Shown here: positions 570 through 643 of the stretch, one piece after another | Numbering within the stretch: position 1 is the first letter of the stretch | Layout: each line of letters starts with the position of its first letter | Virus record (IMG/VR): IMGVR_UViG_2529293061_000008 | Source of the DNA: a virus | Lineage: Duplodnaviria > Heunggongvirae > Uroviricota > Caudoviricetes | Direction: 5' to 3' (one strand) | Length of the DNA stretch: 21,669 nucleotides | Translations under genes and position numbers: made by a program | The notes under the pieces: model-generated | What the model saw: the letters and a program-made list of their open reading frames with translations, nothing else | Told to the model about the DNA's origin: nothing | Database searches by the model: none

Positions 570-643
570 GATTTCACCTTGTGAACTTTATGGTTGACGA
601 TTTCAATTTGTGATCTTATAGTCGCATTGATTTCAAAATGTGA
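570..643. promoter_or_regulatory. Three direct copies of GATTTCA-N3-TGTGA at 570-584, 599-613 and 629-643; candidate operator sites
   Basis: Read directly from sequence; copies are 29-30 bp apart; middle copy lies between the candidate -35 and -10 of the rightward promoter. Confidence 0.45.
594..622 (+). promoter_or_regulatory. Candidate rightward early promoter (pR-like): -35 TTGACG 594-599, 17-bp spacer, -10 TATAGT 617-622
   Basis: Good sigma70 hexamers and spacing, located upstream of apl. Confidence 0.4.

What the first reader, a model, noticed from the sequence alone, without database searches (positions are those of the whole stretch)
570..643. Three evenly spaced operator-like repeats in the cI-apl switch region
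GATTTCA-N3-TGTGA occurs three times in direct orientation (570-584, 599-613, 629-643), 29-30 bp apart, roughly three helical turns. The middle copy sits in the spacer of the candidate pR promoter. Each unit has weak internal dyad character (TTCAC...GTGAA). This fits binding by a multimeric repressor, as reported for 186 CI, or by Apl.
Basis: seen in the sequence. Interest (0 to 1): 0.35.

Follow-up and report, generated by a model that had tools for sequence, protein, structure and literature searches.

The report
Three repressor operators over prophage promoter
The three evenly spaced repeats are real and are almost certainly the binding sites through which this 186-like E. coli prophage's CI repressor shuts off its lytic promoter; this is an ordinary switch, except that the sites sit three DNA turns apart instead of the two seen in phage 186.

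Summary
GATTTCA-N3-TGTGA occurs only at 570, 599 and 629 in 21.7 kb (0.16 expected by chance), 29 and 30 bp apart. The middle copy lies in the spacer of a strong promoter, TTGACG-17-TATAGT.

The leftward gene is a full-length homologue of phage 186 CI. It carries an ochre codon in this copy. The rightward gene is a Cox/Apl-like protein, followed by cII.

The units are best read as 17-bp, partly dyad-symmetric operators. Their right half, TGTGAA, matches the annotated 186 CI sites FL and FR (ATTCAC-N5-GTGAAT).

The same three-site layout and 29-30 bp register hold in all 21 related switch regions examined, from Rahnella, Yersinia, Kluyvera, Hafnia, Brenneria and IMG/VR viral contigs. Across 60 distinct switch regions, repeat identity tracks the CI DNA-binding domain (r = 0.77) and barely tracks Apl (r = 0.15). 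Phages with identical Apl carry unrelated repeats.

The Apl reading is rejected: the spacing is wrong, nothing similar lies on the att side, and the repeats do not follow Apl.

I found no FL/FR-like distal sites and no immunity-specific sites upstream of ogr.

Verdict: CI operators of a new immunity type in the known 186-type switch. The one notable twist is a three-turn register where 186 pR has two turns. Interest is modest.

The parts
570..586 (.). Operator 1 (GATTTCACCTTGTGAAC). It starts one base after the cI start codon (CAT at 566-568) and lies at about -59 to -43 of pR. It contains the perfect dyad TTCAC-N3-GTGAA.
   Evidence: The weight-matrix score is 25.2, the top score in the window. 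The site is kept at the same place in all 21 related loci.
599..615 (.). Operator 2 (GATTTCAATTTGTGATC). It fills the pR spacer, from the last base of the -35 hexamer to 2 nt before the -10 hexamer (about -30 to -14).
   Evidence: The weight-matrix score is 23.3. In 186 the middle CI site is also in the pR spacer.
629..645 (.). Operator 3 (GATTTCAAAATGTGACT), at about +1 to +17 of pR. In relatives this is the best-conserved of the three sites (GATTTCAAAATGTGAAC).
   Evidence: The weight-matrix score is 20.7. In mosaic relatives, similarity that follows the apl type begins just right of this site.
594..622 (+). Lytic promoter pR: TTGACG (594-599), 17-nt spacer, TATAGT (617-622). It drives apl, cII, fil and the genes beyond.
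   Evidence: Promoter scan, 10 of 12 matches. The hexamers are 96-99% conserved in 13 relatives. The position matches the annotated pR of 186.
2..568 (-). cI, the gene for the 186-family immunity repressor (188 codons). In this window it is interrupted by an in-frame TAA at 485-487 (Glu28 to ochre). The allele is intact in other E. coli copies.
   Evidence: the window and L001 differ only at positions 260 and 487. PDB 2FJR E = 4e-24 over residues 10-184. Pfam PF07022 plus PF16452.
695..916 (+). Cox/Apl-like excisionase-repressor gene (73 aa), the first gene of the pR operon.
   Evidence: PHROG 575 'Cox-like excisionase and repressor', E = 3.6e-26. There is no Pfam hit. The gene holds the same position as apl in 186.
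685..713 (-). Putative lysogenic promoter pL, facing pR: -35 TTGAAA (708-713), 17-nt spacer, -10 CAACAT (685-690). Its transcript would read leftward through the three operators into cI.
   Evidence: This is inferred only. It matches 8 of 12 consensus positions and falls below the scan threshold. It holds the same position relative to the apl ATG as the annotated 186 pL. The sequence is conserved in relatives.

Best explanation
The three repeats are the pR operators of this prophage's 186-family CI repressor.

Each 17-bp unit is a partly dyad-symmetric site for one CI dimer, bound through its helix-turn-helix N-terminal domains. The right half-site is TGTGAA and the left half is the diverged GATTTCA.

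The sites lie at about -59 to -43, -30 to -14 and +1 to +17 of pR. Bound CI therefore blocks RNA polymerase at the lytic promoter.

Because pL faces pR about 50 bp away, silencing pR should also relieve convergent interference on pL and so sustain cI expression, as it does in 186.

The constant 29-30 bp register suggests cooperative binding by neighbouring dimers of one CI oligomer. The C-terminal domain is homologous to the wheel-forming domain of 186 CI. The DNA would run along the oligomer at three turns per dimer, against two turns per dimer at 186 pR.

Shown here: the repeats, their statistical excess, their position on pR, the CI homology, their conservation, and their co-variation with CI rather than Apl.

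Inferred: actual binding, one dimer per site, the oligomeric (wheel) state, and the effect on pL.

In this particular copy cI carries an ochre codon at residue 28, so the sites may be unoccupied here.
For: 1. Three exact copies against 0.16 expected, and nowhere else in the window. A 17-site weight matrix scores them 20.7-25.2, and the next hit in the window scores 13.5.

2. The copies straddle the TTGACG-17-TATAGT promoter, with the middle copy in the spacer. The 186 record likewise annotates 3 CI sites across pR, starting at the cI start codon.

3. The adjacent gene is a full-length 186 CI homologue: 2FJR E = 4e-24, PF07022 HTH domain plus PF16452 C-terminal domain.

4. The annotated 186 CI sites FL (CTTCACTTAATGTGAAT) and FR (ATTCACTTTATGTGAAT) fit the same 17-bp frame and share the TGTGAA half. 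Close relatives have clean palindromes at the same three positions, for example L027 AATCACACCGTGTGAAC and L003 GGTCACTCCAAGTGAAC.

5. All 21 related loci keep the three sites with spacings of 28-31 and 30-31 bp, except the distant L033, where the automatic site call is unreliable. Across 12 CI types the best repeat lags are mostly 29-32 or 58-62 bp.

6. Brenneria phages, with an altered CI N-terminal domain, carry three copies of GATTCCAAAAGC(A/G)A at the same places.

7. Across 60 distinct switch regions, operator-column identity correlates with CI N-terminal-domain identity (r = 0.77, partial r = 0.78). With Apl identity the values are r = 0.15 and partial r = 0.26.

8. 186 CI is known to bind sites about three turns apart. 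Two sites at pB are 32 bp apart, and a putative FL' lies 30.5 bp from FL (PMC3675496).
Against: There is no binding data.

The left half-site GATTTCA is not the mirror of TGTGAA. All three sites point the same way, which a symmetric dimer does not require.

The spacing differs from the two-turn spacing documented for 186 pR.

No FL/FR-like distal sites or immunity-specific pB-type sites were found. The looping part of the 186 mechanism therefore has no support here.

Conservation of the sites (0.79-0.87) is only moderately above the neighbouring spacers (0.60-0.78) in the 13-sequence alignment.

Apl identity also shows a small positive partial correlation with the operator columns.
Confidence: 0.85

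Rival explanations
1. The repeats are operators for the Cox/Apl-like excisionase-repressor (695-916). It would bind head-to-tail along the direct repeats to repress pR and pL.
For: The repeats are in direct orientation and lie in the switch region, where Apl acts in 186. Apl identity has a small positive partial correlation with the operator columns (0.26).
Against: Apl and other RDF operators are roughly 6-bp direct repeats 10-11 bp apart. They lie between pR and pL and also at att (PMC7498355; record annotation). Here the units are 17 bp long, 29-30 bp apart and sit on pR.

No copy occurs on the att side of int: the best weight-matrix score there is 6.5.

Apl is identical in 813R9, KP12, 4LV2017 and ST11-VIM1phi8.4, yet their repeats differ completely.

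Phages with Apl 84-88% identical to this one (L050, L057, L047) share only 0.32-0.52 of the operator columns. Phages with Apl 57-70% identical but CI at least 90% identical share 0.80-0.94.
Confidence: 0.04
2. CI does bind the three sites, but as independent or pairwise-cooperative dimers as in lambda, not as part of a 186-like 14-mer wheel. The 30-bp register would only reflect where the promoter elements leave room.
For: No oligomer information was obtained here. The spacing differs from 186 pR. No distal looping sites were found. The middle site is the most variable in relatives.
Against: The C-terminal domain is homologous to the wheel-forming 186 domain: PF16452 E = 1.7e-26, and 2FKD (14 chains in the entry) E = 4.4e-8.

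The register is held to within about 1 bp across heteroimmune lineages whose site sequences have changed. That argues for a geometric constraint between bound dimers.
Confidence: 0.3
3. The repeats are a chance feature, or a non-functional remnant of local duplication, or a binding site for a host factor such as CRP through the TGTGA half-site.
For: TGTGA is half of the CRP consensus. AT-rich intergenic DNA is prone to short repeats.
Against: None of 100 shuffles gives 3 copies.

The sites are kept in several genera and replaced coordinately when CI changes.

No TCACA partner lies 6 bp from any TGTGA (read from the sequence).
Confidence: 0.03
4. The repeats act at the RNA level, as a structured element in the leader of the pL (cI) transcript, which reads through them.
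For: The sites lie in the inferred 5' leader of the cI mRNA.
Against: The leader (window 680 to 560, minus strand) folds no better than shuffles: -22.4 against -20.3 kcal/mol, z = -0.66.

No Rfam family matches with E below 0.6 in window 1-2000.
Confidence: 0.01

Closest known systems
CI operators at pR of coliphage 186 (three sites; Dodd & Egan 1996, as cited in PMC3675496; annotated in NC_001317)
   Same: The repressor is homologous over both domains. There are three sites. The first abuts the cI start codon, the middle one lies in the pR spacer and the third lies at or after the -10 hexamer. The promoters are convergent (pR and pL). cII, fil and the other early genes lie downstream.
   Different: The centre-to-centre spacing is 29-30 bp here. 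In 186 it is about 20 bp, two turns: 57 bp for the three sites. The site sequences at pR also differ: the 186 middle site is TCTCTCAATTGGGAGA. No FL/FR-type flanking sites were detected here.
186 CI sites FL, FR and pB (TCAC-N5-GTGA type sites)
   Same: They share the 17-bp frame and the TGTGAA half-site: FL is CTTCACTTAATGTGAAT and FR is ATTCACTTTATGTGAAT. At pB, 186 CI binds two sites 32 bp apart, and FL has a putative partner 30.5 bp away. A three-turn spacing is therefore documented for this protein family (PMC3675496).
   Different: Those sites are distal or late-promoter sites, and they are symmetric. Here the sites are the main pR operators. Their left half is GATTTCA, not the mirror TTCACA.
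186 Apl operators (RDF-type arrays)
   Same: They lie in the same switch region and are direct repeats.
   Different: Apl sites are 6 bp long and 10-11 bp apart. There are seven between pR and pL and five at attP. The repeats here fit none of these features and do not co-vary with Apl.
P2 C and WPhi C operators (P2-type switch)
   Same: They are repeats in direct orientation flanking the early promoter of a P2-like phage. The half-site spacing differs between heteroimmune relatives by one helical turn, 22 nt in P2 and 34 nt in WPhi (PMC1904263). That parallels the 2-turn versus 3-turn difference seen here.
   Different: The repressor family is unrelated (about 99 aa, and PMC2995052 states it has no sequence similarity to 186 CI). 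Those operators are two half-sites for a single dimer, not three dimer sites.
Lambda OR1-OR2-OR3
   Same: It is a tripartite operator over a lytic promoter, bound cooperatively by a two-domain CI repressor.
   Different: The lambda promoters are divergent, the sites are about 23-24 bp apart (from general knowledge), and the oligomerisation is different.

Membership tests
186-type CI operator set at pR | The cognate repressor is a 186 CI homologue (HTH N-terminal domain plus oligomerising C-terminal domain), encoded next to the sites and transcribed towards them | tested here: met
   2FJR E = 4e-24 over residues 10-184; PF07022 E = 1e-28 and PF16452 E = 1.7e-26. The cI start codon at 566-568 is one base from site 1.
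186-type CI operator set at pR | Three sites cover the lytic promoter, with the central site in the -35/-10 spacer | tested here: met
   The sites are at 570-586, 599-615 and 629-645. The promoter hexamers are at 594-599 and 617-622. The 186 annotation is available for comparison.
186-type CI operator set at pR | Adjacent pR operators are two helical turns apart | tested here: not met
   The spacing is 29 and 30 bp. In 186 the operators are 'spaced two turns apart' (PMC3675496).
186-type CI operator set at pR | The sites are inverted repeats recognised by a dimer | tested here: inconclusive
   The dyad is partial. Weight-matrix self-complementarity is 0.49 at centre 9 and 0.45 at centre 10, against 0.10-0.30 elsewhere. 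Only site 1 has perfect 5-bp arms. Relatives have clean palindromes at the same positions.
186-type CI operator set at pR | Flanking distal sites (FL, FR) lie about 300 bp away for looping, and CI sites lie at the late-activator promoter pB | tested here: not met
   No weight-matrix hit of 8.5 or more lies within the searched flanks apart from the three operators, a weak reverse-strand match at operator 2, and a coding match in fil. The candidates at 915-931 and 1578-1594, and those upstream of ogr, are all invariant across heteroimmune phages.
186-type CI operator set at pR | The site sequences change together with repressor specificity (heteroimmunity) | tested here: met
   r = 0.77 (partial 0.78) between operator columns and the CI N-terminal domain over 60 switch regions. 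The Brenneria and other variants are shown.
186-type CI operator set at pR | CI protein binds the sites and represses pR | not testable with these tools
   This needs EMSA, footprinting or reporter assays.
Apl/Cox (RDF) operator array | Short (about 6 bp) direct repeats spaced one helical turn (10-11 bp) apart | tested here: not met
   The units are 17 bp long and 29-30 bp apart. The definition comes from PMC7498355.
Apl/Cox (RDF) operator array | The same recognition sequence is also present next to the attachment site | tested here: not met
   The att side of int in the intact prophage (L039) has a best weight-matrix score of 6.5, against 20.7-25.2 for the repeats.
Apl/Cox (RDF) operator array | The sites co-vary with the RDF protein | tested here: not met
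   Identical Apl proteins are paired with unrelated repeats. r = 0.15.
P2 C-type direct-repeat operator | The repressor belongs to the small P2 C family | tested here: not met
   The repressor is 188 aa and of the 186 CI type. The two families share no sequence similarity according to PMC2995052.

The most novel reading that the evidence does not exclude
A large clade of 186-family CI repressors, found in Escherichia, Klebsiella, Yersinia, Rahnella, Hafnia, Kluyvera and Brenneria phages, natively uses a three-turn (about 30 bp) register between operators, with sites that are asymmetric and all point the same way.

This would imply an oligomer-DNA geometry different from the two-turn, 147-bp wrap modelled for 186. 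One possibility is about 30 bp per dimer, roughly 180-210 bp per wheel. Another is a ring of different size.

That would bear directly on the unexplained roughly 180-bp occupancy seen by AFM for 186 CI (PMC3675496).
Probability: 0.25. Interest if true: 0.55.

Novelty: new member of a known kind. Interest (0 to 1): 0.33.

Why it matters
It assigns the operators, and hence the immunity specificity, of an uncharacterised 186-like prophage type. That type is present at 99% identity or more in 17 of 5,426 complete E. coli genomes. Related CI types occur in about 880 more.

It also shows that the three-site pR design of 186 is general, but that its two-turn spacing is not. The relatives sampled here keep a 29-30 bp register even when the site sequence changes.

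This gives phage-switch researchers a natural test case for how a CI wheel accommodates three-turn spacing. The operator/repressor pairs could also serve as orthogonal parts for synthetic biology.

It does not reveal a new kind of regulation.

Tried and rejected
1. FR-like site. TATTTCAAAATCGAATC (915-931, minus strand) lies 26 bp before cII, where 186 FR lies. However, the element TTCGAT(T/A)TTG... is conserved across different CI types. It probably belongs to the CII-dependent promoter pE. Rejected as a CI site.

2. The exact 10-mer TCAAAATGTG at 977-986 (minus strand). It lies in the conserved cII codons and lacks the GATT and GTGA positions, so its weight-matrix score is negative. Rejected.

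3. The weight-matrix hit CAATTCATCTTGTGAAC at 1578-1594 (minus strand, score 13.5). It is identical in the heteroimmune phages RE2010, KP12 and ST11-VIM1phi8.4, so it reflects fil coding sequence. Rejected as an immunity-specific site.

4. A pB-type pair upstream of ogr in the intact prophage (L121 positions 958 and 916, 42 bp apart, scores 10.8 and 8.3). The sequence is essentially the same in 80 contigs, and by contig name these include at least three other CI types. Not CI-specific.

5. FL-like site inside cI. No hit was found in the window. One Brenneria relative (L008) has a match to its own motif at -284 from the cI start, and 186 FL is at about -285. I did not follow this up.

6. Known RNA family or leader structure. 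None was found.

7. megablast against GenBank phage records found nothing for window 1-1000. Only the distant mode and the E. coli genome collection gave matches.

8. The original 186 operator papers (JBC 1996 and 2002; Mol Microbiol 2002, PMC2941640) are not held. The 186 site classes A, A' and B could therefore not be checked directly. I relied on the NC_001317 annotation and on PMC3675496.

Full report
**Observation.** The window reads GATTTCACCTTGTGA at 570-584, GATTTCAATTTGTGA at 599-613 and GATTTCAAAATGTGA at 629-643, all on the + strand and 29 and 30 bp apart. With up to one mismatch allowed, these are the only matches in 21,669 bp. Dinucleotide shuffles give 0.16 on average and never three. 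The repeat finder extends the unit to 19 nt. I use a 17-nt frame: 570-586, 599-615 and 629-645.

**Context.**
- The best promoter-like site of the region is TTGACG (594-599), 17 nt, TATAGT (617-622) on the + strand.
- Leftward from 568 runs a 188-codon gene. Its product aligns with phage 186 CI over residues 10-184 (PDB 2FJR, E = 4e-24). It carries both the CI helix-turn-helix domain (PF07022) and the CI C-terminal domain (PF16452).
- Rightward lie a 73-aa Cox/Apl-like protein (PHROG 575, E = 3.6e-26), cII (PF06892) and a fil-family gene (annotation of the intact copy).
- The region is a prophage present at 99% identity or more in 17 complete E. coli genomes. No GenBank phage record is close.
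- In those genomes cI is intact. The window copy differs at two bases in the first 1000 nt, and one of them creates an in-frame TAA at codon 28.

**Comparison with 186.**
- The NC_001317 record annotates three CI sites in 57 bp, starting at the cI start codon and spanning pR. It also annotates seven Apl sites between pR and pL, five Apl sites at attP, and single CI sites FL and FR about 300 bp to either side.
- The literature states that the three pR operators are two helical turns apart. It also states that 186 CI binds two sites 32 bp apart at pB, and that FL may have a partner 30.5 bp away (PMC3675496).
- Apl operators are 6-bp direct repeats 10-11 bp apart (PMC7498355).
- The annotated FL (CTTCACTTAATGTGAAT) and FR (ATTCACTTTATGTGAAT) are TCAC-N5-GTGA palindromes in a 17-bp frame. 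The window's repeats share the right half, TGTGAA, in the same frame. Their left half is GATTTCA.

**Relatives.**
- A search with CI returned 30 loci from Rahnella, Yersinia, Kluyvera, Brenneria, Hafnia and IMG/VR contigs.
- In 20 of the 21 distinct or representative switch regions examined, three similar 17-mers occupy the same positions: next to the cI ATG, in the pR spacer, and just after the -10 hexamer. Their spacings are 28-30 and 30-31 bp. In the most distant locus (L033) the automatic site call was unreliable.
- Some relatives have clean palindromes there, for example L027 AATCACACCGTGTGAAC and GGTCACATGAAGTGAAC, and L003 GGTCACTCCAAGTGAAC. The 'direct repeat' look of the window's sites is therefore a shared asymmetry laid over a dyad site.
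- A weight matrix of 17 window-type sites is most self-complementary about positions 9 and 10.
- Brenneria phages, whose CI N-terminal domain differs at several residues, carry three copies of GATTCCAAAAGC(A/G)A at the same three places.
- Across 12 CI types the best repeat lags are mostly 29-32 bp or 58-62 bp.

**CI or Apl?**
- A second search, with the Apl-like protein, returned 80 loci.
- The phages 813R9, KP12, 4LV2017 and ST11-VIM1phi8.4 have identical Apl proteins but different CI proteins and unrelated repeats, such as GTACCCAATTGGGTAC or AAATGTGA-type.
- Sequence similarity between these phages and the window starts just right of site 3. This places the three sites in the cI module.
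- Over 60 distinct switch regions, identity in the operator columns correlates with identity of the CI N-terminal domain (r = 0.77, partial 0.78). It correlates only weakly with Apl identity (r = 0.15, partial 0.26).
- The att side of the intact prophage has no copy of the motif.
- The spacing, the unit length, the absence at att and the lack of co-variation all argue against Apl.
- Possible Apl sites are instead the two TTAAAC copies 10 bp apart at 664-679, between pR and the inferred pL. That is only a suggestion.

**Other sites.** I looked for FL/FR-like and pB-like sites with the weight matrix.
- Nothing in the window apart from the three operators exceeds 13.5.
- The 13.5 hit, inside fil, is identical in heteroimmune phages.
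- The sequence at the FR-equivalent position (915-931) belongs to an element conserved regardless of CI type. It is probably the -10 region of the CII-dependent promoter.
- Two similar 14-mers upstream of ogr in the intact prophage are essentially invariant across 80 contigs, which include several CI types.
- The looping part of the 186 mechanism therefore has no support here.

**RNA readings.** No Rfam family matches. The cI leader folds no better than shuffles.

**Mechanism.**
- The sites lie at about -59 to -43, -30 to -14 and +1 to +17 of pR. Bound CI would therefore exclude RNA polymerase.
- An inferred pL has its -35 at 708-713 and its -10 at 685-690 on the minus strand. This is the same position relative to the apl ATG as in 186. 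It faces pR with start sites about 50 bp apart, so repression of pR should relieve interference on pL as in 186. This step is inference.
- The register is held to within about 1 bp in lineages whose site sequences have changed. This suggests a fixed distance between DNA-binding units of one CI oligomer. Whether that oligomer is a 14-mer wheel was not tested.
- 29-30 bp is three turns only at about 10 bp per turn. The roughly 20-bp spacing at 186 pR is likewise two turns at about 10 bp per turn.

**Verdict.**
- The finding is real. The CI reading is right with about 0.85 confidence, and the Apl reading is wrong.
- This is a new immunity type of the known 186-type switch. Its notable feature is a three-turn operator register, conserved across the clade sampled here, where 186 pR has two turns. 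The P2 family shows the same kind of variation (22 against 34 nt; PMC1904263).
- The register bears on the open question of how much DNA a CI wheel occupies (PMC3675496). Otherwise the finding is ordinary.

Noticed in passing
window 485-487 (minus strand, cI codon 28): The cI gene of this copy has an in-frame TAA (Glu28 to ochre). The two other E. coli copies I inspected (L001 and L120), and the four IMG/VR copies, encode the intact protein, with GAA at this codon in L001. The window and L001 differ only at positions 260 and 487 in the first 1000 nt. It is either a repressor-defective prophage or a sequencing error.
   Followed up: partly
window 664-669 and 674-679 (+): Two copies of TTAAAC lie 10 bp apart between pR and the inferred pL, where 186 has its Apl operators (TGGCAA-like, 10-11 bp apart). 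GTTAAAA and GTTATAAA motifs also occur on the att side (L039, about 860-880). These are possible Apl sites, and the evidence is weak.
   Followed up: partly
window 915-931 and 949-976: The element TTCGATTTTGAAAT just upstream of cII is conserved across heteroimmune relatives. The first 27 nt of cII (ATGTTTGATTATCAAGTTTCCAAACAT) nearly match the CII binding site annotated in 186 (ATGTTTGATTTTCAGGTTTCCAAACAT). This is likely the CII-activated leftward promoter pE.
   Followed up: partly
L001 1267-3000 (outside the window, between int and cI in the intact prophage): An AAA-family ATPase plus a DUF4276 protein sit between int and cI. From memory, this gene pair resembles the PARIS anti-phage defence system. 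The window, and several IMG/VR contigs, start exactly at the cI stop codon, just inside this cargo.
   Followed up: no
L121 916-932 and 958-974 (minus strand; upstream of ogr in the intact prophage, outside the window): Two similar 14-mers (TTTCGAAATGGAAT and TTTGCAAAATGGAAT) lie 42 bp apart, just upstream of the ogr/Delta-like late activator gene. They are essentially invariant in 80 viral contigs whatever the CI type. Their function is unknown; they may belong to the ogr promoter.
   Followed up: partly
L039 about 250-560 (att side of int in NZ_CP019256): A stretch of imperfect tandem CCACC(A/T)GG(T/A)CC(T/A)GT(G/A)TA-like repeats lies between int and the bacterial flank, with an open reading frame running through it. 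It looks like a Gly/Pro-rich repetitive cargo gene.
   Followed up: no
L057-L063 (IMG/VR relatives with Apl 86% identical to the window's): In this CI type the operator in the pR spacer (ACTCCAAATGAGAC) is the exact reverse complement of the core of the one after the -10 hexamer (GCTCATTTGGAGTC). Orientation can therefore flip between sites in some lineages, which fits binding by a dimer.
   Followed up: partly
L008 at -284 relative to the cI start: The Brenneria relative has GATTGCAAAAGCGCACC inside cI, a near match to its own operator motif. It lies at almost the same distance from the cI start as 186 FL (-285). Some lineages may therefore keep an FL-like site even though the window's phage shows none.
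   Followed up: no
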